Shown here: positions 19,411-41,408 of the stretch, in pieces | Position numbering within the stretch: position 1 is the first letter of the stretch | Layout of the letters: every line of letters begins with the position of its first letter | From: Planctomycetota bacterium | Lineage (GTDB): Bacteria; Planctomycetota; B15-G4; SIAN01 | Length of the DNA: 64,000 nt | Direction of reading: 5' to 3' | NCBI GenBank assembly: GCA_031409275.1 | Contig: JANNXA010000055.1 | Coordinates: 128,001 to 192,000 of the forward strand | Program-made: the position numbers and the translations under genes | Notes under the pieces: model-generated | What the model was told of the DNA's origin: nothing | The model's input: only the letters and a program-made list of their open reading frames with translations | Databases searched by the model: none

Positions 19411-20342
19411 GACGCGCTCTCTCGCTGCCGGACCGCGCGCAACCGCGCGGCGCTCTTGGCGAGCAGCAGTCCGATCTCGAACAAGACGAGCATCGGCACC
19501 GCGACGAGCATCTGCGAGACGTAGTCCGGCGGCGTGATCACCGCCGCGATGATGAAGATCGCGAGGATGCAGTGGCGCCGTTTGCCGCGATAGAACTCCG
19601 GCCCGACCAGCCCCGTGCTCGAAAGCACCCACATCACCAACGGGATCTGGAAGACGAGCCCCATCACCAGCAAGAGCAGGAACAGCAGGCCGAGGTACGA
19701 GCCGATCGCCACCTGCGGCCGCACGAACGTCGGATCGCCGTAGCCCACCAGGAAGCGCACCGAGAGCTCGGCCAGGACGAAGTAGCCGAACGCGAGACCG
19801 ACGAAGAAAAAGAGCAGCGAGACCGGGAGCACCCTCCCGACCATGCGCTTCTCGGCGTCGTAGAGCCCCTCGGCAACGAACCGCCACAGCTCGTAGAGCA
19901 ACACCGGCGCCGACACGATCAAGGCCGCCAGCAGGCACTCGAGCATGTAGGCGCTGAACGCCTCGAGCGTTCCGACCGCCTGCAGTTGCGAGAGCGACGG
20001 CGGCGGCTCGCGCCACTCGACCGCCTGGAGCGTGCTCAGTTCCGCGAAGTCGGTGTCATCGAGCAGGCTCTTGCGATGGAGTCGCTCGATCAGCAGGTCG
20101 ACCGTACGTTTGATCGGGTGCTCTGGCGCCGGTCGCGCCAGCCACTTCTCGGCGAACTCCGCATTCAACGAGGCCCGCGCGCGCTCGTAAGGGCGCGTGA
20201 AGAACTCCATGAGCGATTCCTGAAACGCGAACGCGGCGGCAAATGCCACCGCGAACGCGAGGATTCCTCTCATGAGACGCCGGCGCAGCTCCTCGAGGTG
20301 CTCGCCGAACGTCATCCGGACGTCGTCAGGGGCGAGACTCAC
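19407..20342 (-). CDS. tatC: Twin-arginine translocase subunit TatC
   Basis: MTFGEHLEELRRRL, ELWRFVAEGLYDAEKR, FQIP, AVITPPD, PMLVLFE. Confidence 0.95.
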   Translation of the reverse strand: MSLAPDDVRMTFGEHLEELRRRLMRGILAFAVAFAAAFAFQESLMEFFTRPYERARASLNAEFAEKWLARPAPEHPIKRTVDLLIERLHRKSLLDDTDFAELSTLQAVEWREPPPSLSQLQAVGTLEAFSAYMLECLLAALIVSAPVLLYELWRFVAEGLYDAEKRMVGRVLPVSLLFFFVGLAFGYFVLAELSVRFLVGYGDPTFVRPQVAIGSYLGLLFLLLLVMGLVFQIPLVMWVLSSTGLVGPEFYRGKRRHCILAIFIIAAVITPPDYVSQMLVAVPMLVLFEIGLLLAKSAARLRAVRQRESAS

Positions 20343-21607
20343 TCGTACTTGAGGAACTCAAGGATCTCGCGCACCGGGAGCACCTGAACGCGATAGAGCT
20401 GCGCGAGCTGCATCTCGGCCGATTCGGAAGAACCGGCATCGGAGCCATCGCCTTCCGCCGCCGCGTCCGCCTCGCCGCTCGCCGCAGCCGGCTCGGCGTC
20501 ACCCATCACCAGGAAGTCCGTGGTCGGACCCACCTTCTCGGAGACGTTGGCGCCCAGAGCGCGGAGCCGGTCGGCGACCATGGCACGCGAGTAGCCCGAC
20601 GGGAAGCGACCGGTGAGGACGAACTCGCGCGGCATCTCCGGGTCGTAGTTCGGAGCCGAGATCTTGTCGCCGCGAGAAATCGGGTCGAAGCGATCCTTCA
20701 GATCGACCACGGTGCACTCGGCCATCGCCTCGTTCACCGAGGAGACCTCGACCATCCCCTTCTCGCGCATCGCGCCGTTCTTGCCGTAGGTGAAGACCTT
20801 GAAGCGCGTTCCGCGACGCAGCAACTGCTTGCTGCCGAGATCGATGTAGCAGGTGTTCGCGGTGCTGACCGCGACGACGGAGCCGTCCGGCTCATCCGGA
20901 AGGCGGATCACTTCGAGCTTCTTCGACATCTCCGCGATGCGGCCCTCGCGCTTGCGGACATCGTCATTCAGCGCGGCGACCTGCTTCTCGAGCTCTTCCT
21001 TCTCGGCGCGGGCGCGCGCTTCGGCAGCGTTCAGGCGCCCGTTGAGCTCTTCGATGCGGGTTTTGTCCGACGTCTCCTGCGCGCCATTGCGATCGCGCTC
21101 GTCGGAGAGCTGGCGCTGCACTGCCGCCGTCGCTTCATCCTTCTGGCGCGTCATGTCGCGCAGGTTCTGTTCGGTCGACGCGCGCGACGCTTCGGCCGTC
21201 GTTTGCGCCTGCTTGGCTTCGGCGAGCTGACGCGTCAGGTCATTGACCTGCGCCTCGAATCGCTCGACCACGCGAGCGAGGTTCGACGCGTCCTTGCCGA
21301 CGAAACCGTAGCTCTCCTGGAGCGCGGTCAGGCGGCCTTTGATCTCGTCCGGACGCGCATCCGAGTTCGGATCGGTCTCGTCACGGAAGCCGACGTGCTG
21401 GGCGAGGGCGCGGACCTTGCCGGCCGACTCCTCGTACTTGGCACGCGCCTGCGCTTCGAGAGTCTGCGCGTCCTTGACCTTCTTCTCGTTGTCCGCCTTC
21501 TCAGAGGCGAGCACGTAGATGCCGGCGCCGGCAAAGAGCACGAGCGCGAGCAACACGATGACCCAAATGACGCCAACAGTCGCGGCCCCGCGGATTCGGC
21601 GGTTCAT
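20339..21607 (-). CDS. Membrane-anchored coiled-coil protein with C-terminal beta-rich domain and BRCT-like domain
   Basis: N-terminal TM helix and long charged coiled coil, then PDGSVVAV..CYIDLG..LRRGTRFKVF, then FVLTGRF..SRAMVADRLRALGANVSEKVGPTTDFLVMG (DNA-ligase-type BRCT pattern). Confidence 0.75.
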   Translation of the reverse strand: MNRRIRGAATVGVIWVIVLLALVLFAGAGIYVLASEKADNEKKVKDAQTLEAQARAKYEESAGKVRALAQHVGFRDETDPNSDARPDEIKGRLTALQESYGFVGKDASNLARVVERFEAQVNDLTRQLAEAKQAQTTAEASRASTEQNLRDMTRQKDEATAAVQRQLSDERDRNGAQETSDKTRIEELNGRLNAAEARARAEKEELEKQVAALNDDVRKREGRIAEMSKKLEVIRLPDEPDGSVVAVSTANTCYIDLGSKQLLRRGTRFKVFTYGKNGAMREKGMVEVSSVNEAMAECTVVDLKDRFDPISRGDKISAPNYDPEMPREFVLTGRFPSGYSRAMVADRLRALGANVSEKVGPTTDFLVMGDAEPAAASGEADAAAEGDGSDAGSSESAEMQLAQLYRVQVLPVREILEFLKYE

Positions 21608-29817: not shown

Positions 29818-32736
29818 TCAGTGTCCGTTTCCAGCCCCGCCACCCGCGGCCTGAACCGACGTCGCCTCGCGCCAGCGCGCGGCGAGCGCCGCAATCACCG
29901 CAGGCTCGGCCTCGGTCGCCAGGCTGCCGAGCGAACGGCCGTGGATGGCTTCGAGCAGTTCGAGCGCGCTGCGTCGAACGAACCAGCGCGGATCCTCGAT
30001 GGCCGCGACGAACAAGCGCTGGAACGCCGCGTCGCGGTAGTCGCTGCCCGCAGGAACCACTGCCCCCGCCTCCTTCAACGCTGACAGGAAGTGGTCGAGG
30101 TGGCTCGCGCTCGGAGCGGCTTCATGCAGGGAACGAAACTTCCACGTCTCGGTTCCCGGATCGTGGCAGAAAAGGTAGGTCAGCAGCGTCTGCGCACGTC
30201 GGTGGGAGCGCTCCTCCTCGAGGTCGGCGAGCAGGACCGGAACGGCATCCATCTCGCCGAGGTCCGCGAGTCCATAGGCGGCTTCTCGCGCCAGGGCGCC
30301 CTGCTCTTCGGTGAGCAGTCGGCGCAATCGAGCGACCGCCAACGATCGCGGCAGCGCCTTGATCCCGGCCAGCGCCAGGCGGCCGATCGCTGCCGTGGTG
30401 CCGACCTCGCGCGCGATCCCTTCGAGCGCGGCCGCCGCCGCTTCGTCGCCACGCTTGGTGAGTCCTTCGAGCGCTGCCGCTGCCAGCGAGGTGTCGTCGC
30501 CGCGCACGGTCGCCACCAGCATCGCCAACGCGTCGTCGCGATGGGAGAGGCCGAGCCACCGCAGCGCTTCGGCACGGACCGCCATCGGCGCCGACTGCGC
30601 CTGCTCGAGCAGCAGTGCAACGCCCGCCTCGCCCCCTTGGCGCGCCAAGAGCGACAACGCCTTGCTGCGTACGCGCTCCTCGGCATCCGTGCGCGCGACG
30701 GCAACGAGCCGCTCGTCGTCGAAGCGAACCCCGTCGCGCTCGGCGATCGTCAACGCCGCAAGGCGCACGAGCGGTCGCGGGTCGTCGAGCGAACGCTCGA
30801 TCCGATTCATCCGCGTCACGGCGCTCACGATCAGGTCGAGCGCGGCGCCACCGCGAGGCGCGATCGCATCGACGACGCGATCGAACGCGTCGTCGCGATT
30901 CGTGGAGATCAGCAGTTCGATCACCTTCTGCGTCCGCGCGTCACCGAACGGGAGCTTGGCGAGCAATGCGGCCAGGCTGTCGATCTGCGTCGCACGGACG
31001 CTGCCACCGAGATCATCGATGCGCGCGAGCACGACGAAGGCCTGCCGCGCCGCCACCGGATCGTCCGAGGCCATCTGGGCCAGTGCCAGGTCGAGCAGTC
31101 GCGAGCGCCGCGCCGCCGCGTCCTCGTGCGTCGAGAACCACGCCTGCTCCTCCGCGAAGCGCGACGGGAAGGTGCCATCGAGCGGCAGCAGCAGCTGCCA
31201 GAGCGACGGCTCGACGGCGCGCCGAATCAGTCGTTCGAACTCGATGCCGCGCGCCTCTTCGGCCCGCAGCGCGACGACTCGCTCCTTGCCGCGCGACGTC
31301 AGTCGGAGCATTCGGTCGCCCGCGGCGGCAGGTTGCAGCTGGCGCGGCAGCTCCGCGTCGAGCAGGCCGGCGTCCTGCAGATGCGAGAGCAGGTCCCGCA
31401 TCGGTTCGGCCCCGAGGTAGATCGCGCCGGGACGCTGGCCCGACGCGATCGCGGTGCGCTGGTGCTCACCGCACACGATGACGTCGGTCTGCAGTTGCCC
31501 GGTCGCGTCCGCGCTCTGCACGGTCACGACCGCATCCTGCGCATCTTCATCGAGGACGAGCATTTGCAGCTCGCGACGCCCCTCGAAGCGCGCGGTCGGA
31601 TGGGCCGCGAACCACTCGCGCCAAGCCGGCACGCTCGGCCCGAGCCGCTCGCCCGTCAGCACCTCGAGGCAGGTGACGGCGGTCTTGAAGCAGAGTTCGA
31701 AGTCACCGAAGAAGCGGCCATTCACCACGACGTCGACGAGCGCCGGGACCACCTGTTCCTGCGTCACCGGGCCGTACGACTCGCTGCGGTAGCCGATCGT
31801 GCCGCAAACGACGCACGCCGTGGCCTGCAACAACGGGTCGCTCGTGCGCACCATCGGCAGGAATCGATCGAACAGCGCTTCCGGAAGCAGAGCGGTCGCG
31901 GTGCGCTGCTCATGTAGCACCAGCGCGAGCGCCGCGTGGAGGTTGCGCCGCTCCCGTTCACCGCCGGCGAGCCGAGCGAGCTCGGCCACGACCGCGGGGT
32001 CGTCCTCCCACGACAGGAGCTTCGTCGCCTCGATCGCCAACGAGGGATCGCGATCGCCGAGGAAGCGCTCGAGCGCCAGCGCCGGCAGCGTCGGCTCCTT
32101 CATGTCGCGCAGCAGTTCGAAGAGATCGAGGCGCACACCTTCCGAACGCGTCGCCACCAGCTTGCGCATCAGCTCCGCGCGCACCTCCGGAGTCGCATGC
32201 AGACGCAGCAGCGCCGTCGCCGCGCCGCGCAAGGGCGCCTGCTCGGAGTCGAGGAAACGCAGCGCCAACGCGCCGCCGCGCGCTTCGTCGAGTTCGAACA
32301 GGGAGGCGAGCAGCGGTGCGAAGCGCGTCCGTTGACGCGGGTCGGCGAAGAGCTTCTCGATCTGGGGGAACGACTCGCCGTCCGCCAGCAGGCAGAGCCC
32401 GCGCGCCGCAGCCGTCCGCTCGAGGACGGTGCCGTCCTTCAACCGCGCCCGCAGGAGCGGGACGAGCTCCGGGCCGCGCGCCACCAGGGCGCGCAGCGCC
32501 CGCTCGCCCGACTCGCCGGGCCACGTCGTGATGAGGGGCAACGCCTTGGCGAGCGCCTGCTCCGACGTGACGACCACAGGCTCTTTCGAGTCGCGGTCAC
32601 GCGGCTTGTCGCCGTGGTCGAATTCGGGGCGATCGCGATCCTGCTTGCCCGCGCCGCCGCCACTCTGTGCCGCAGCGGGCGACGATAAAACGACAAGAGC
32701 GGCGAGCACCGCCGGCAGTTTCCACATGAACGTCAT
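29818..32736 (-). CDS. Large exported HEAT-repeat protein
   Basis: Signal peptide (AAA-Q); multiple HEAT-like repeats (DDPRPLVRLAAL, EDPRWFVRRSAL, AREAAYGLADLG). Confidence 0.8.
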   Translation of the reverse strand: MTFMWKLPAVLAALVVLSSPAAAQSGGGAGKQDRDRPEFDHGDKPRDRDSKEPVVVTSEQALAKALPLITTWPGESGERALRALVARGPELVPLLRARLKDGTVLERTAAARGLCLLADGESFPQIEKLFADPRQRTRFAPLLASLFELDEARGGALALRFLDSEQAPLRGAATALLRLHATPEVRAELMRKLVATRSEGVRLDLFELLRDMKEPTLPALALERFLGDRDPSLAIEATKLLSWEDDPAVVAELARLAGGERERRNLHAALALVLHEQRTATALLPEALFDRFLPMVRTSDPLLQATACVVCGTIGYRSESYGPVTQEQVVPALVDVVVNGRFFGDFELCFKTAVTCLEVLTGERLGPSVPAWREWFAAHPTARFEGRRELQMLVLDEDAQDAVVTVQSADATGQLQTDVIVCGEHQRTAIASGQRPGAIYLGAEPMRDLLSHLQDAGLLDAELPRQLQPAAAGDRMLRLTSRGKERVVALRAEEARGIEFERLIRRAVEPSLWQLLLPLDGTFPSRFAEEQAWFSTHEDAAARRSRLLDLALAQMASDDPVAARQAFVVLARIDDLGGSVRATQIDSLAALLAKLPFGDARTQKVIELLISTNRDDAFDRVVDAIAPRGGAALDLIVSAVTRMNRIERSLDDPRPLVRLAALTIAERDGVRFDDERLVAVARTDAEERVRSKALSLLARQGGEAGVALLLEQAQSAPMAVRAEALRWLGLSHRDDALAMLVATVRGDDTSLAAAALEGLTKRGDEAAAAALEGIAREVGTTAAIGRLALAGIKALPRSLAVARLRRLLTEEQGALAREAAYGLADLGEMDAVPVLLADLEEERSHRRAQTLLTYLFCHDPGTETWKFRSLHEAAPSASHLDHFLSALKEAGAVVPAGSDYRDAAFQRLFVAAIEDPRWFVRRSALELLEAIHGRSLGSLATEAEPAVIAALAARWREATSVQAAGGGAGNGH

Positions 32737-36244: not shown

Positions 36245-36420
36245 GCGACGCGCTCGATCGCCGTTTGCGCCCCACGGCGGGCGTCGCTCGTTTGATCGGC
36301 GAGGCGCTGTTCGACCTGCTGCTCCTGGTGCCGAGAGTGCTGCTGGCGATGCTGTTCTGCACGAGCCGCCAACGCTCGATTGCTGACCTCGTGCGCGCGA
36401 AAGGACCTCATGCCCCGTAA
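36241..36420 (+). CDS. Possible 59-aa small membrane protein
   Basis: GTG overlaps the upstream stop (GTGA) and its own stop overlaps the next start; hydrophobic core LIGEALFDLLLLVPRVLLAMLFC. Confidence 0.45.
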   Translation: MSDALDRRLRPTAGVARLIGEALFDLLLLVPRVLLAMLFCTSRQRSIADLVRAKGPHAP

Positions 36421-37573
36421 GACGCGCATCCTCCACGACAACGACGAGTACCTCTTCGTCGAAGCCCCCGGTGACCCGCTCGGCCCGGCGCTGCAGGTCT
36501 TCGCGCGCACCGACAATGAACGCGCCGTTCCTGCCGGCCGCGCCCCCACGCACCAGACCGAGCACGGCCTGTGGATCCAGATCGCTCGCTTCGACGGCCT
36601 GGAACTCGGGATCGCCCCGGATAGCCCGGACGGGCTCGGCGAGCGCGTCAAGACGATGCTGCCGCGCTACGTCGAAGTGCGCGCCACGCGAATGGCGCAG
36701 GCCAAGCACCCGATGTGGTGGATCGTCAGCGAAGGACACGCGCTGCACGGGCTCCATCCCGCGCAGCCGGCCGGCGCACTGTTCAAGCTTTGGAGCGATG
36801 AAGCGCGCGCGCGCGCCGTGGTGGCGGAGCTCGGTGTCGAGGGCGCCGTGCAGACCACCGGACACCTGCGCGAGTTCCTCGAACTGCGCGCCGAGGAGGG
36901 TTACGCGGGCGCGCTCCTCGATGACGAGGAGCTGATCTTCTTCTGCCTCGACGAGCAGGCGAAGCTGCAGTTCCTGCGCCTCGCGCCACGCGCCGGCGAT
37001 GACGAGGAGGCGGCCGGTGTGGCGACCCATCTCCTCGGCGAAAACGGCCGTTTCGCGCTCTACGAGGGCGACGAGAAGCTCGAACCGCTGTCCGACCCGG
37101 ATGGCTGGGATCGCCTGCTGGCTCGCCTCTACGGCGAGCTGCCGTTCTACGGCTACGTGCCGGGCTGGCGCTGCTTCGCCCTGCGACTCGACGGCGCGTG
37201 GGTGACCCGCCTCGATGCGGAGAGCGAGTTCAAGCAACCGCTCGTCGCGCTGTTCCACGATCCGGCGACCGCGGACGACTACCGCTCGCGTCACGGGCTC
37301 GCGCGCGCCACGTTGGAGCGGGTGACGGACATCGTCGCGCTGGTCCGCCACGCGCAGGAACAGGGACAGCTCGTTTCACTGCAACCGGAAGACCATCGGG
37401 TGCGCGGTGGACCGCTCTGGCTCGACCGCGACGGCAAGCTGCTGCTGCTCGGCTACTGCGGAATCTGGTCGTCGCGCGATGGAGTCGCCTTCGAGCGCGT
37501 CGCCGAAGAGGAGCTTCCCACCACGAGCCCCGACGACGCCGAAGTCGACGATCAGTCGTCCGGCATCACGTAG
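36410..37573 (+). CDS. Hypothetical cytoplasmic protein, possibly with an internally duplicated domain
   Basis: ATG 36410 after AAGGA; normal amino-acid composition over 387 aa; no recognised family. Confidence 0.75.
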   Translation: MPRKTRILHDNDEYLFVEAPGDPLGPALQVFARTDNERAVPAGRAPTHQTEHGLWIQIARFDGLELGIAPDSPDGLGERVKTMLPRYVEVRATRMAQAKHPMWWIVSEGHALHGLHPAQPAGALFKLWSDEARARAVVAELGVEGAVQTTGHLREFLELRAEEGYAGALLDDEELIFFCLDEQAKLQFLRLAPRAGDDEEAAGVATHLLGENGRFALYEGDEKLEPLSDPDGWDRLLARLYGELPFYGYVPGWRCFALRLDGAWVTRLDAESEFKQPLVALFHDPATADDYRSRHGLARATLERVTDIVALVRHAQEQGQLVSLQPEDHRVRGGPLWLDRDGKLLLLGYCGIWSSRDGVAFERVAEEELPTTSPDDAEVDDQSSGIT

Positions 37574-38310
37574 GAGCGGACCGCGCCATCGTCCGATCGC
37601 GATCCCGCGAGGAAAGTGCCGAGCACGTTGCAGCCAGCGTTGCGCAGCAGCTCGAGCGCGCGGGTCGATTGGTCGCGCGGAGTCTTCTCCAGGCGCACCA
37701 CATAGAGCAATCCATCCACGCGCGCGCCCAACGTGGCGGCGTCAGCGAACGGGAGCGCCGGCGGCGTGTCGAACAGGATCCACTGGTAGTCGGCCTTGAG
37801 CGCGCCGATCAGGTCGCTCATGCGCGAGCTGCCGAGGAGTTCCGAGGAATTTCGCACGGCGCGACCGGCCGGCAGGACCGAAAGCCCCGGGATCGAGGTC
37901 GTCGAGATCACCTTCTCGAGCGGCACGAAGTCGAGCATCAGGTCGGCGAGACCCGGCTCGCGCGGGATCCCGAACAGCTGCGCCTGAGCCGGCGACCGCA
38001 GGTCCGCGTCGATCACCAGCACGCGCGCGTCGGGCAATTCGCACAGCGCGGCGGCAAGGTTGGCCAACGTGATCGACTTGCCTTCACCCTTGATCGCCGA
38101 GGTGACGGCGAGCGCGCGCGGCTGGCCGCCCGTGTTGAGCGCGACGAGGTTGGTGCGAAACGACCGATACTGCTCGGCAACGCCGCTCTGCGGCTCGTGG
38201 CAGACGACGACGCGCGGATCGATGGTGCGATCCACCAGGATCAGCAGCTCGTCGGACGGCCCGCCGATCGAGTTGCTGCGTTTCGAAGCGGGGGTTGCTG
38301 GATCGGCCAT
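37552..38310 (-). CDS. CpsD/CapB family (BY) tyrosine kinase, stand-alone
   Basis: AEQYRSFRTN, Walker A GEGKS, A' VIDADLR, Walker B FDTPP. Confidence 0.9.
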   Translation of the reverse strand: MADPATPASKRSNSIGGPSDELLILVDRTIDPRVVVCHEPQSGVAEQYRSFRTNLVALNTGGQPRALAVTSAIKGEGKSITLANLAAALCELPDARVLVIDADLRSPAQAQLFGIPREPGLADLMLDFVPLEKVISTTSIPGLSVLPAGRAVRNSSELLGSSRMSDLIGALKADYQWILFDTPPALPFADAATLGARVDGLLYVVRLEKTPRDQSTRALELLRNAGCNVLGTFLAGSRSDDGAVRSYVMPDD

Positions 38311-38521: not shown

Positions 38522-39382
38522 TTGCCGCAACCGCTGAGTCGACGCCTCGCCGGGCTGTTCCGCAGCAAGGCCGACCTCACGAGCGTGAAGGCGCTCGAGA
38601 AGGCCGGCGTGCGCAGCGTGAACGTGCTCGACCTGCGCCGTCTCGAGCAGATCGTCGGTGACGCGATGGAGAGCGCGCTGCACGAGGCGCTGGTCGCGGG
38701 CGGCTCCGCGGAGCACGCAGCGACCGGAGCGCAGCTCGAATTCCTGCGCCGCCTCGGCCTCGAAGGACGTCTCGCCGAGCGCACCGGAGAACTTGACGCC
38801 GAACGCGCCGAGCTCGCCGGCAGCCTCGAGAAACTGAACACCGTCCTTGACCAGAGCAAGGCGGAACTCGCGCAGCACAAGGCGGAACAGCGCCGCGGCG
38901 CGCTCGACGATCTGCGCGCGCGGCTCGACTTGTTGCTGGATGAAACGTTCGCGCGCTTCGTGGCGCTGCAGGAGGAGGGGCTCGCGCTGACGTCGAGTCG
39001 ACCGCCGCTGCGCGCCGCGCTCCTCGCACTCCTCGAAGGCGCGCTCCTCGCGGGCGGTGGCACCGTCGCTGCCGTAGAGGACAGTGCACACGTCGATCGG
39101 CTCGAACGGCGCGTGAAGAAGCTGCACGTGCAGCTCCTCGAAACGCAGGAGCTGCTGGCGCGCACGCGCGAAGAGCAGGAGGCGCAAGTGGCGGCCACGG
39201 CGCGCGCGGCGCGCGACGGCCGCACCGGAGTCGCGGCCATCACCGCTCCATCGAGTGACCACTCCGACCGCAAAGCGCTGATGCGCGAGATTTTCGCTCA
39301 CAACCTCGAACTGCGTCGCACGCTCGGTGACCCCGACGCCGCGACGCGCCCCGTCCAACGCACCGATCCGGAGACACGATGA
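38522..39382 (+). CDS. Hypothetical coiled-coil protein coupled to the actin-like gene
   Basis: TTG start 10 nt after GAGGAG; heptad-rich segments; ATGA overlap with the next gene. Confidence 0.8.
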   Translation: MPQPLSRRLAGLFRSKADLTSVKALEKAGVRSVNVLDLRRLEQIVGDAMESALHEALVAGGSAEHAATGAQLEFLRRLGLEGRLAERTGELDAERAELAGSLEKLNTVLDQSKAELAQHKAEQRRGALDDLRARLDLLLDETFARFVALQEEGLALTSSRPPLRAALLALLEGALLAGGGTVAAVEDSAHVDRLERRVKKLHVQLLETQELLARTREEQEAQVAATARAARDGRTGVAAITAPSSDHSDRKALMREIFAHNLELRRTLGDPDAATRPVQRTDPETR

Positions 39383-40458
39383 ATGCTTCCACCGGAACCC
39401 CGTCCCGTTCGCGCCCTGCCACGCCGAAGGGAACCCTCTACCTCGGCATGGATCTCGGGACCTCTCGCACCTCCATCGCCACCAGCACTGGCGTGCGGGA
39501 GACGGTGGCAAGCTACGTCGGCTACCCCAAGGACGTGGTGTCGCGAAAGGCATTGAAGAAGGACGTGCTCTTCGGCGACGACGCGCTGGCCAATCGCCTC
39601 GCGCTCAACCTCTATCGCCCGCTGGCCGGCGGCGTGATCCAGCACAGCGACGGCGCGGCCGATAGCGCCGAGGCGAAGGCCTACCTCAAGGCGGCTCAGG
39701 ACCTGATCCGCCACGCGGTCGGGTTGGCGCGACCGGAATCCGACGAACTCGTCTACGCCGTGATCGGCTGCCCGGCGCAGTGCTCGTTGCGCAACAAGGC
39801 GGCGATCCTCGAGGCGGCGCGACCCGTCGTCGACTCGGTGATGATCGTCTCGGAGCCCTTCAGCGTCGCCTACGGCATCGACCAGCTCACCGACTGCCTC
39901 GTCATCGACATCGGCGCCGGCACCACCGACCTCTGCCGCATGCGCGGCGCGATGCCGACCGCAGAGGACCAGCTCACCAACGTCTTCGCCGGCGACCACG
40001 TCGACAAGAAGCTCGAGGAGCTCCTGAAGAAGAAGTGCGTCGGCGCGGCCTTCACGATCCACGCGATCAAGGACCTGAAGGAGCGCTTCTCCACGGTCAG
40101 CGACATCCACGAGCCGGTCTACTTCGAGGTGCCGGTGAGCGGCAAGCCGACCCGCTTCGAGGTCGGTGCCGAGCTGCGCGAAGCGTGCCGCTCGATCGTT
40201 CCGCCGATGGTCGACGCCATCCACCAGCTCATCGCCAGCTACGATCCCGACTTCCAGAGCCGCCTGAAGAACCACGTGCTGCTCGGCGGTGGCGGCAGTC
40301 AGATGGGTGGCTTGCGGGAGATCCTCGAATCGGAGATGAAGTCGCGCCTCGGCGAGGGGCGCGTGACACGCGTCGAAGAGCCGACCTACGGCGGCGCCAA
40401 TGGCGCCCTCAAGATCGCGCATGACATGCCGGCGGAGTTCTGGGAGAAACTCTCCTGA
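39379..40458 (+). CDS. MamK-like bacterial actin
   Basis: GMDLGTSRT, SEPFSVAYG, IDIGAGTTD, LLGGGGS actin-fold motifs; MamK-type VGYPKDVV and GAL.IA..MP.EFW..L C-terminus. Confidence 0.9.
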   Translation: MNASTGTPSRSRPATPKGTLYLGMDLGTSRTSIATSTGVRETVASYVGYPKDVVSRKALKKDVLFGDDALANRLALNLYRPLAGGVIQHSDGAADSAEAKAYLKAAQDLIRHAVGLARPESDELVYAVIGCPAQCSLRNKAAILEAARPVVDSVMIVSEPFSVAYGIDQLTDCLVIDIGAGTTDLCRMRGAMPTAEDQLTNVFAGDHVDKKLEELLKKKCVGAAFTIHAIKDLKERFSTVSDIHEPVYFEVPVSGKPTRFEVGAELREACRSIVPPMVDAIHQLIASYDPDFQSRLKNHVLLGGGGSQMGGLREILESEMKSRLGEGRVTRVEEPTYGGANGALKIAHDMPAEFWEKLS

Positions 40459-40502: not shown

Positions 40503-41408
40503 ATTCCGCCGCTGCTGAAGGCCCTGCGCCCCCATCAATGGACGAAGAACCTCGCGGTCTTCGTCGGCATCCTCTTCGCCCGGAAGCTCGGCGATCCGGC
40601 GGTGCTGCTTCCCGTGGCGCTGCTGTTCTGCGCCTTCTGTCTCGCGGCGAGCTGCATCTACCTGATCAACGACATCGCCGACCGCGAGGAAGACGCCAAG
40701 CACCCGGTCAAGCGCATGCGGCCGATCGCGTCGGGCGCGCTGTCCGTCGGAAGTGCGCGCGTCGCCGCGGTGGTGGTTGCCGGGCTCGCGCTGGCGCTGG
40801 TGTGGTTCCTGCCGACGGACGTCCGACTCACGCCGTGGAAGCTGCGCCCCGGCCCATTGGTGCTGTCGGCCTACCTCGGATTGAACCTCGCCTACACGTC
40901 GCTGCTGAAGCGCGTCGCCATCGCCGACGTCACCTGCGTTGCGCTCGGCTTCCTGATCCGCGTCGTCAGCGGGCCGAAGGTGGCGGGCCTCGAAGTCTCG
41001 TCGTGGCTGATCCTGTGCACCTTCTTCGGTGCGCTCTTCCTCGCGCTGGCGAAGCGCCGCGGCGAACTGCTCGTCACGCAGACCAGCGGCGGCGGTCGCT
41101 CGGTGCTGGAGCAATACTCGGCGCAGGCGCTCGACACGCTGGTGGCGATGTCCGGGACGGCGACCGTGATCTGCTACTCGATCTACACCGTCTCGGCCGA
41201 GACGATCGCGAAGTTCCACACCAGCGACCTGCTCTACACCATCCCGTTCGTCTTCTACGGGCTTGGTCGCTACCTGCTGCTGCTCTACCGCCGCCAACGG
41301 GGCGAAGACCCGGCGGCGGTGCTCTTCACGGATCGCGGCATGTTGGTCGCGATCGTCGGCTGGCTCGCCACGTCGGCCGTCGTCTTGAGCCTGCCGCACA
41401 CGCCCTGA
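40503..41408 (+). CDS. UbiA family prenyltransferase (decaprenyl-phosphate phosphoribosyltransferase-like)
   Basis: LRPHQWTKN, YLINDIADREED..HPVKRMRPIASG, KRRGEL, GEDP; the conserved N-terminus requires a start upstream of 40602 (ATT 40503 or CTG 40512). Confidence 0.9.
   Translation: MPPLLKALRPHQWTKNLAVFVGILFARKLGDPAVLLPVALLFCAFCLAASCIYLINDIADREEDAKHPVKRMRPIASGALSVGSARVAAVVVAGLALALVWFLPTDVRLTPWKLRPGPLVLSAYLGLNLAYTSLLKRVAIADVTCVALGFLIRVVSGPKVAGLEVSSWLILCTFFGALFLALAKRRGELLVTQTSGGGRSVLEQYSAQALDTLVAMSGTATVICYSIYTVSAETIAKFHTSDLLYTIPFVFYGLGRYLLLLYRRQRGEDPAAVLFTDRGMLVAIVGWLATSAVVLSLPHTP

What the first reader, a model, noticed from the sequence alone, without database searches (positions are those of the whole stretch)
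39379..40458. MamK-like actin outside any magnetosome island
Seen: all actin-fold ATPase motifs, plus segments typical of MamK rather than MreB (SYVGYPKDVV, AVIGCPA, SEPFSVAYG, DIGAGTTDLC, GALKIAHDMPAEFW). There is no mreC/mreD and no other mam gene in 64 kb; the surroundings are mostly housekeeping genes. Established: MamK forms dynamic filaments that position magnetosomes. From memory, a MamK-related filament-forming actin named saltatorellin was reported in shape-changing planctomycete-related bacteria. Inference: a chromosomal cytoskeletal filament with a non-magnetosome role such as shape change or organelle positioning.
Basis: partly seen in the sequence, partly recalled or inferred. Interest (0 to 1): 0.8.

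Follow-up and report, generated by a model that had tools for sequence, protein, structure and literature searches.

The report
Saltatorellin actin with modular coiled-coil partner
A planctomycete in which no magnetosome gene set was found encodes a known MamK-like bacterial actin (saltatorellin) directly behind an unnamed coiled-coil protein that likely binds and anchors its filament, and a relative of that protein sits in front of a second, different actin in the same genome, so one adaptor family likely serves two bacterial cytoskeletons.

Summary
Observation confirmed. ORF 39379-40458 (359 aa) is a saltatorellin ortholog: 58% identical to the Saltatorellus ferox protein versus 37-38% to island MamK. 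It branches with saltatorellin, apart from MamK (AU p=1e-4). The genome (93% complete) has a separate mreBC operon, and no orthologs of the Mam proteins queried. The gene is in 39 of 42 class genomes and 144 of 401 phylum genomes, so it is a core gene, not a displaced magnetosome gene.

All 113 genomes with a strong partner hit carry the actin; none of 192 lacking both actin types has a hit. The N-module recurs, with a different tail, before a volactin-family actin here and in 19 of 22 genomes examined. The C-module is also fused to GGDEF domains. Complex prediction gave weak support only. A BY-kinase-like gene is divergent upstream in 29 of 39 class genomes.

Likely a dynamic filament with a dedicated adaptor; cellular role untested. 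The scan reported this actin-partner pair before in other genomes.

The parts
39379..40458 (+). Saltatorellin-type (MamK-related) actin-fold ATPase, 359 aa
   Evidence: ATPase motifs located
38522..39382 (+). Conserved partner gene, 286 aa (TTG start as on record), nearly all helical with a long coiled coil; its stop overlaps the actin start (ATGA 39379-39382)
   Evidence: no Pfam or NCBIfam family
38534..38755 (+). N-module of the partner (about 75 aa), shared with the partners of the volactin-family actin
   Evidence: paralog C22:97245-98051, E 1e-13; reversed-ORF control best E 0.71; (hhalign 98.8%, E 9e-17; reciprocal HMM E 3e-6)
39089..39322 (+). C-module of the partner (about 75 aa, coiled coil plus terminal helix); the only part kept upstream of saltatorellin in S. 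ferox; also fused to GGDEF-type domains
   Evidence: (96.9%, E 2e-10)
39370..39373 (+). GGAG Shine-Dalgarno-like motif 5 nt before the actin ATG, inside the partner gene (translational coupling inferred)
   Evidence: Sequence
37552..38310 (-). Soluble BY-kinase/CapB-like P-loop ATPase, 252 aa, divergent from the partner; accessory
   Evidence: Pfam AAA_31/ParA/CbiA; divergent within 2.5 kb upstream of the actin in 29 of 39 class genomes; the BY-kinase label rests on recalled motifs

Best explanation
The gene is the saltatorellin ortholog of this planctomycete, a vertically conserved MamK-related actin that likely polymerises into an ATP-driven dynamic filament, and the coiled-coil protein encoded just before it is likely its dedicated adaptor, predicted to grip the actin with its C-terminal module and to tie the filament through its N-terminal module to a cellular anchor, most likely in the cell envelope for shape remodelling or FtsZ-free division. 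Shown here: orthology, intact ATPase motifs, absence of Mam orthologs among those queried, operon structure, co-distribution, and the modular make-up of the partner family. Shown elsewhere: the S. ferox ortholog forms filaments in E. coli and M. gryphiswaldense. Inferred: polymerisation of this copy (about 0.9), direct binding of the partner (about 0.6), C-module as the actin-specific end and N-module as a shared anchor (about 0.45), an envelope or shape role rather than cargo segregation (about 0.45).
For: Orthology: 58% identity to the S. ferox gene located with the paper's own primer versus 37-38% to island MamKs and 32-33% to BeeR-like proteins. Query and saltatorellin share a 100/98 clade of 20 rows; island MamKs sit in a separate 97/93 clade; AU rejects query plus MamK, p=1.4e-4. 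Core gene: 39 of 42 class genomes, mostly one copy; 151 of 401 phylum genomes at E<=1e-30, 144 at E<1e-95. Partner linkage: ATGA overlap; directly upstream in 46 of 48 loci; 113 of 113 genomes with a partner hit at E<1e-20 have the actin; 0 of 192 genomes lacking both actin types have any hit. Modularity: upstream of S. ferox saltatorellin and 5 other complete loci only the C-module is kept. The N-module precedes volactin-family actins in 19 of 22 genomes examined, there with a different conserved tail. All 29 genomes with a weak partner hit and no saltatorellin-type actin have the volactin family. Complex prediction: weak support, score 0.55 against best of 3 controls 0.00; the mark was reached by 116 of 157 solved and 2 of 215 mismatched pairs, but at 0.60 or under by only 18 of the 157 and by both mismatches; runs agree in at least 47% of contacts, partner pLDDT at least 62. 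Analogy: MamK and Mad28 of D. magneticus RS-1 act with coiled-coil Mad proteins (PMC12748827 passages); volactin acts in archaeal shape change (PMC10869688 passages). No FtsZ in this genome, with 13 of 14 controls positive.
Against: Nothing here measures function. The partner is not universal: 31 of 144 actin-bearing genomes have only a weak hit (28, of which 25 could be the volactin partner) or none (3). Three loci of family f56 and loci L045, L054 and L118 have no upstream partner, so the actin can exist without it. The 46 of 48 count comes from the best hits to the query, with profiles built from those loci. Genomes are kin, so the counts are not independent. The complex score lies in the range that the tool calls more often wrong than right unless likely beforehand, and it gave no interface, so the C-module assignment rests on gene architecture alone. 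The partner has no clear transmembrane segment (best 19-residue hydropathy 1.8, inside a predicted helix), so an envelope link needs an unknown anchor. The genome keeps a full MreB system, so shape control has another candidate. The shape role of saltatorellin is a hypothesis in its own paper.
Confidence: 0.55

Rival explanations
1. A chromosomal segregation or positioning system in the manner of ParM-ParR or salactin: the partner binds DNA or nucleoid by its N-module and the filament by its C-module, and the neighbouring P-loop ATPase helps position it.
For: Actin plus small adaptor in one operon is the ParMR layout (recalled). A ParA/MinD-fold ATPase is adjacent in 29 of 39 class genomes. 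Salactin aids DNA partitioning (PMC10869688 passage). The lineage lacks FtsZ.
Against: No parC-like repeat array upstream in 6 of 6 regions examined, only two-copy matches. No DNA-binding family recurs among 35 partners; the nearest is Xre/MbcA/ParS-like N in 5 of 35 at best E 0.0017, among generic coiled-coil hits. Fusing the C-module to GGDEF domains fits signalling localisation better than segregation.
Confidence: 0.18
2. An organelle-positioning filament as MamK is, with a non-magnetic cargo such as microcompartments or storage granules tethered by the partner.
For: The closest solved structure is MamK. The genome has a BMC shell gene cluster about 44 kb from the actin. MamK uses adaptors for this purpose.
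Against: No cargo gene is conserved next to the pair in the loci read. Co-occurrence with BMC genes was not tested.
Confidence: 0.13
3. The actin is saltatorellin, but the upstream protein is a co-expressed, self-assembling coiled-coil scaffold or a regulator that does not bind the actin directly.
For: Long coiled coil with only generic structural matches. Stand-alone and GGDEF-fused copies exist away from the actin. The complex score is weak.
Against: Translational coupling; strict dependence of the strong partner on the actin (113 of 113); a different tail with each actin family.
Confidence: 0.11
4. A displaced or relict magnetosome mamK, the rest of the island lost or unassembled.
For: MamK HMM score at the cut-off. 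About 7% of the genome is missing. Magnetotactic Planctomycetota are reported. The tree lacks island-verified MamKs of deep-branching phyla.
Against: MamI, J, L and P give no hit. MamM and MamB hit one generic CDF at 25-27% (55-66 bits) while cross-lineage controls give 50% and 285-300 bits; MamM HMM 87 bits versus cut-off 350. The gene is in 39 of 42 class genomes with a constant partner and sits outside the island MamK clade.
Confidence: 0.02
5. A diverged MreB paralog.
For: Many databases label the homologs 'rod shape-determining protein MreB'.
Against: MreB HMM 53 bits versus cut-off 293; canonical mreB operon elsewhere; MreB is a far outgroup in the tree.
Confidence: 0.01

Closest known systems
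Saltatorellin of Saltatorellus ferox Poly30 (Wiegand et al., bioRxiv 10.1101/817700)
   Same: 58% identity over 346 residues; same well-supported clade; non-magnetosome context beside a separate MreB; an upstream gene carrying the same C-module.
   Different: Here the upstream partner is full length (N-module, coiled coil, C-module), while in S. ferox it keeps only the C-module and a full-length copy lies elsewhere. A BY-kinase-like gene is adjacent here but not within 8 kb in S. ferox. The main text of the paper has no occurrence of 'coiled' or 'operon'.
MamK of magnetotactic bacteria (PDB 5ljv, 5jyg; NF040964)
   Same: Fold (TM 0.88), ATPase motifs including the connect-1 EP glutamate and phosphate-2 DxGxG, 37-38% identity.
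   Different: Separate clade; no magnetosome genes; a longer insertion in the loop around residues 85-100; the partner shows no match to MamJ or any NCBIfam Mam model.
BeeR (PDB 8r2n; NF053558; PMC11929497)
   Same: Non-magnetotactic MamK relative of the PVC group with a short N-terminal extension; TM 0.81.
   Different: 197 bits versus cut-off 530; 32-33% identity to BeeR-like proteins; separate clade; the three BeeR-like loci fetched lack the partner.
MamK/Mad28 with coiled-coil Mad20/23/25/26 in deep-branching magnetotactic bacteria (PMC12748827, PMC10653835)
   Same: Two different actin families in one cell, each associated with coiled-coil proteins; the second actin here has the Mad28-type phosphate-2 serine motif (SxGxG).
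   Different: No magnetosomes. Homology of the partner to any Mad protein, and of the second actin to Mad28, could not be tested (no Mad sequence in hand); the second actin is placed only by Pfam Volactin, 284 bits.
ParM-ParR-parC type II segregation systems (recalled)
   Same: Actin gene coupled to a small adaptor whose C-terminal part would bind the filament.
   Different: Chromosomal core gene, no centromere-like repeats found, no ribbon-helix-helix match, long coiled coil.

Membership tests
Saltatorellin | Branches with the S. ferox protein, close to but apart from MamK | tested here: met
Saltatorellin | Second actin beside a canonical MreB in a planctomycete without magnetosome genes | tested here: met
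   genome 92.9% complete, MamQ not queried
Saltatorellin | Forms filaments in vivo | not testable with these tools
   Shown for the Poly30 protein only
Magnetosome MamK | Scores at the NF040964 cut-off | tested here: inconclusive
   399.6-400.6 versus 400; saltatorellin itself scores 419.9, island MamKs 495-549
Magnetosome MamK | Encoded with the core mam genes (A, B, E, I, M, O, P, Q) | tested here: not met
   with positive controls; (no control rang); MamQ not tested
Magnetosome MamK | Falls inside the island MamK clade | tested here: not met
   AU p=1.4e-4; five island-verified MamKs of two lineages only; four unnamed rows were added to the tested group after seeing the quick tree
MreB | MreB HMM cut-off and mreBCD context | tested here: not met
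BeeR | NF053558 cut-off and BeeR clade | tested here: not met
BeeR | Three-stranded tubular filament | not testable with these tools
   Needs cryo-EM
Mad28 (for the window actin) | Phosphate-2 serine, SxGxG | tested here: not met
   The window actin has DIGAG (motif definition); the second actin on C22 has SFGGG
ParMRC-type segregation | Centromere repeat array next to the operon | tested here: not met
   6 regions of 0.45-0.9 kb
ParMRC-type segregation | DNA-binding adaptor | tested here: inconclusive
   No such family; the wide fold search had not finished
BY-kinase (for 37552-38310) | Walker A, A' and B motifs; C-terminal tyrosine cluster; activator domain | tested here: inconclusive
   GEGKS, DAD and DTPP are in the sequence (motif set recalled); only one tyrosine at the C-terminus, no membrane part, no activator gene seen

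The most novel reading that the evidence does not exclude
Planctomycetota carry an undescribed family of modular actin adaptors. A shared N-module docks on a common cellular anchor, while swappable C-terminal tails select the filament, saltatorellin for one and a volactin/Mad28-type actin for the other. The saltatorellin tail is reused as a filament-targeting tag on GGDEF-type signalling proteins. This would be a two-actin, adaptor-organised cytoskeleton behind shape change and FtsZ-free division, and a non-magnetic counterpart or forerunner of the MamK/Mad28/coiled-coil magnetoskeleton.
Probability: 0.3. Interest if true: 0.78.

Novelty: new variant of a known kind. Interest (0 to 1): 0.5.

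Why it matters
The actin alone is known. How Planctomycetota change shape and divide without FtsZ is open, and saltatorellin has been a candidate with no described partner in the papers searched. A conserved, co-translated partner with two separable 75-residue modules makes this testable in a cultured strain and in vitro: does the C-module bind, nucleate or bundle the filament, and what does the N-module bind? That the same N-module fronts a second, unrelated actin family suggests a general adaptor code for bacterial actins, and bears on where the magnetosome cytoskeleton came from.

Tried and rejected
Plasmid collection: no match to the actin. Magnetochrome PF18509: no match, but no control rang, so it is uninformative. 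ESM Atlas: whole partner gave only 'hypothetical protein' clusters under 0.9; the N-module of a homolog gave no usable hit. Foldseek of the partner model: nothing at E<=0.001. PDB profile search: generic coiled coils only. The VIA wide fold search of the partner had not finished when the report was written. Fusion test: the long N-extended MamK-like proteins among the 150 representatives carry neither module, so there is no fusion evidence. Partner as substrate of the neighbouring kinase: rejected for this genome, because the partner has no tyrosine; the conserved aromatic column is Y in 26, F in 9, H in 3, other or gap in 8 of 46 rows. The first co-occurrence figure, 141 of 144, was dropped as inflated, because the profile also hits the volactin partner; it was replaced by 113 of 144. 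Iterated partner profiles drifted onto unrelated coiled coils (L060, L061), so separate N and C profiles with a reversed-ORF control were used. No sigma-70 promoter or intrinsic terminator was found (expected counts near zero, uninformative). Expression: no RNA holder listed. The search for a 'Mad28' name among the 120 best homologs of the second actin gave none; every taxon label shown was Planctomycetota. Of 10 primer matches only L062 is the gene: L055 was read and is unrelated, and none of the other eight holds an actin hit. L065 was a chance match to the MamK motif.

Full report
1. Observation. The ORF 39379-40458 (+) is intact and encodes 359 aa with every motif quoted. Its G+C at third positions (0.90) fits the genome. 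NCBIfam ranks MamK first at 399.6 bits against a cut-off of 400, then BeeR 197/530 and MreB 53/293. The PDB sequence search ranks MamK (E 4e-73), BeeR (1e-41), then MreB (5e-11). An AlphaFold model from a 46-row alignment (pLDDT 92.4, pTM 0.87) matches MamK 5ljv with TM 0.88. The 40 window proteins scanned against Pfam are housekeeping, transport or signalling genes, or have no family; none is mam or mre.

2. Not MreB, not a magnetosome gene. The genome (5.59 Mb, 55 contigs, 92.9% complete) has a canonical mreB (464 bits), followed by genes that read as mreC, a penicillin-binding protein and rodA (read by eye), about 52 kb from the actin. It has no FtsZ match, with 13 of 14 controls positive. 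For Mam controls I fetched metagenome loci with a MamK motif: 5 of 6 were magnetosome clusters, with NCBIfam confirming MamK, M, O, P, N, E, J, I, L, H and B over their cut-offs and MamA under its cut-off. Sixteen of these proteins were searched against the genome. MamI, J, L and P gave no hit. MamM and MamB hit one generic CDF at 25-27%. MamA hit a 98-residue stretch. MamE and MamO hit only protease domains. Between magnetotactic lineages the same queries gave 50% and about 300 bits for MamM. MamQ was not tested.

3. It is saltatorellin. The preprint 10.1101/817700 (passages; supplements of preprints are closed and may list more homologs) names a second actin of Saltatorellus, close to MamK, that forms filaments in E. 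coli and M. gryphiswaldense; its role in shapeshifting is stated as a hypothesis. Its cloning primer located the gene in the named S. ferox Poly30 record (L062:8001-9083). The window protein is 58% identical to it, 37-38% to island MamKs and 32-33% to BeeR-like proteins. Trees were thinned from 103 prepared rows to 61 (quick) and 36 (careful), both LG+G4 without the mixture model. In the careful tree, query and saltatorellin lie in a 20-row clade at 100/98 and the MamKs in another at 97/93. Forcing the query into the MamK group is rejected (p-AU 1.4e-4); four unnamed rows of that group were chosen after the quick tree. Island-verified MamKs of deep-branching phyla were not in hand. Saltatorellin itself passes the MamK HMM (419.9), so that model does not separate the two.

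4. Distribution. 39 of 42 genomes of the class have the gene at 53-100% identity, mostly once. The three without are 58%, 92% and 82% complete, and the latter two hold the second actin type. In 401 phylum genomes, 151 match at E<=1e-30 and 144 at E<1e-95, largely all-or-none by family. Source names of homologs are Planctomycetota. More distant relatives carry labels from Verrucomicrobiota, Nitrosomonadaceae, Gemmatimonadota, Nitrospira, Acidobacteriota and ANME-2 archaea.

5. The partner. Gene 38522-39382 ends in an ATGA overlap with the actin start, with GGAG 5 nt before it. It has no Pfam or NCBIfam family. Its model is almost all helix with a long coiled coil (pLDDT 79, pTM 0.51) and has no structural match at E<=0.001. 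It is directly upstream of the actin in 46 of 48 loci: 38 with both modules, 8 with the C-module only (2 of them cut by a contig end), 2 without. These loci were best hits and the profiles were built from them. From the phylum tables, 100 of 150 listed actin places have a listed partner within 1 kb upstream, a lower bound since 129 partner matches were not listed. A 35-row profile hits 170 of 401 genomes. All 113 with E<1e-20 have the actin, which is 113 of 144 actin genomes; 28 have only a weak hit and 3 none. None of the 192 genomes lacking both actin types has a hit. Three loci of family f56 lack an upstream partner, so it is dispensable in some lineages. Kin are not independent.

6. Two modules. 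The C-module is what remains upstream of S. ferox saltatorellin (hhalign 96.9%). S. ferox has four proteins with it: that one, a GGDEF fusion 5 kb downstream, a second fusion whose front part resembles a degenerate GGDEF by eye, and a stand-alone full-length copy; the GGDEF fusion recurs in L116. The N-module has one paralog in this genome (C22:97245-98051, E 1e-13; reversed-ORF control E 0.71), directly upstream of a second non-MreB actin of the Pfam Volactin family (284 bits). That actin has the SxGxG phosphate-2 motif that PMC10653835 (passages) gives for Mad28; I could not test Mad28 membership. It occurs in 12 of 42 class genomes, and the family in 145 of 401 phylum genomes, 80 of which also have the saltatorellin type. 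In 19 of 22 genomes whose volactin loci were fetched the N-module lies directly upstream; one more has a weak hit at a locus edge and two have none within the flank. The two partner kinds align over the first 116 columns (98.8%, E 9e-17), and the volactin partners end in a different conserved tail.

7. Third gene. A soluble BY-kinase-like P-loop ATPase (37552-38310, minus) is divergent and within 2.5 kb in 29 of 39 class genomes. It is co-directional in L121 and absent within 8 kb in S. ferox. The partner here has no tyrosine, so it is not the substrate in this genome.

8. Mechanism. The most economical reading is a dynamic ATP-driven filament with a co-translated adaptor. The C-module would bind the actin: it is the part never lost from the upstream gene in the loci that keep one, it differs between the two actin types, and it is appended to signalling domains. 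The N-module would bind something common to both systems. Complex prediction gave weak support: 0.55 against best control 0.00. The mark was reached by 116 of 157 solved and 2 of 215 mismatched pairs, but at 0.60 or under by only 18 of the solved and by both mismatches; contact agreement was at least 47%, partner pLDDT at least 62, and no interface was given. The anchor and the cellular task are not shown. An envelope or shape role is preferred by analogy with the saltatorellin hypothesis, volactin's role in disk formation (PMC10869688, passages) and the lack of FtsZ. DNA segregation is weakened by the lack of repeat arrays in 6 regions and of a DNA-binding family. Organelle positioning stays open, as the genome has BMC shell genes.

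9. Literature and earlier scan notes. Searches for saltatorellin, MamK with planctomycete terms, MamK-like non-magnetotactic, Saltatorellus with actin and MamK with coiled-coil or tyrosine kinase listed no paper that describes the partner; the library lacks most subscription journals. I read part 1 of 2 of PMC11929497 (BeeR) and passages of PMC12713370, PMC12748827, 10.64898/2026.10.26.761892, PMC7951924, PMC9840458 and PMC11032199. PMC12748827 reports coiled-coil Mad proteins interacting with MamK and Mad28. Earlier notes of this scan reported the actin with a coiled-coil partner, mostly with the kinase, in five other genomes, and a volactin/Mad28-type actin with a coiled-coil partner in another; they are unchecked and are not counted as support. 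The few lines shown of them do not mention the shared N-module or the GGDEF fusion.

10. Verdict. The actin is a new member of a known, named kind. The system, actin plus a modular adaptor family shared with a second actin, is a variant that I did not find described. Interest 0.5.

Noticed in passing
G000:C22:97245-99203 (L078:7245-9203), outside the window: Second operon: an N-module coiled-coil protein followed by a volactin-family actin with a Mad28-type phosphate-2 motif; 87-94% identical orthologs in the genus; tandem copies of the actin in several other families.
   Followed up: yes
L062:14077-15114, L116:1547-2587, L126:1468-2679: GGDEF-type domains fused to the partner's C-module; in S. 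ferox and G365 the fusion lies 5-7 kb downstream of the actin. The S. ferox GGDEF motif looks degenerate.
   Followed up: partly
P0188: A 768-aa protein with FtsZ (Tubulin and FtsZ_C domains) fused to MamK, named MamK by its source; it may be an assembly or annotation fusion.
   Followed up: partly
P0133-P0135, P0137, P0138, P0141, P0143-P0145, P0147-P0149, P0156, P0157: MamK-like actins with 190-900-residue N-terminal extensions, most with a conserved coiled-coil start and a long low-complexity linker; they carry neither partner module; taxon unknown.
   Followed up: partly
P0161 cluster: A MamK/saltatorellin-related actin labelled as from ANME-2 and Methanosarcinales archaea.
   Followed up: no
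G339 (L071, L076, L077): One genome holds a saltatorellin-type actin with full partner, a BeeR-like actin, a third diverged copy and a volactin-family actin.
   Followed up: partly
window 40503-41408: UbiA-family prenyltransferase downstream of the actin, kept in several genomes of the same family. Its conserved RPHQW stretch lies in frame upstream of the first common start codon (40602); an in-frame ATT at 40503 behind GAGG may be the start.
   Followed up: no
G000:C55:212295-213825, outside the window: A cluster of BMC shell genes just downstream of the mreB operon.
   Followed up: no
window 29818-32736, 36380-37573, 20339-21607: Large conserved-looking proteins with little or no family: a 972-aa HEAT-repeat protein after a MoxR/DUF58 pair, a 397-aa protein next to the kinase-like gene, and a 422-aa protein before tatC.
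   Followed up: no
L109-L111 (family f56): The saltatorellin-type actin here has no upstream partner; in L110 a different coiled-coil gene lies divergent to it.
   Followed up: partly
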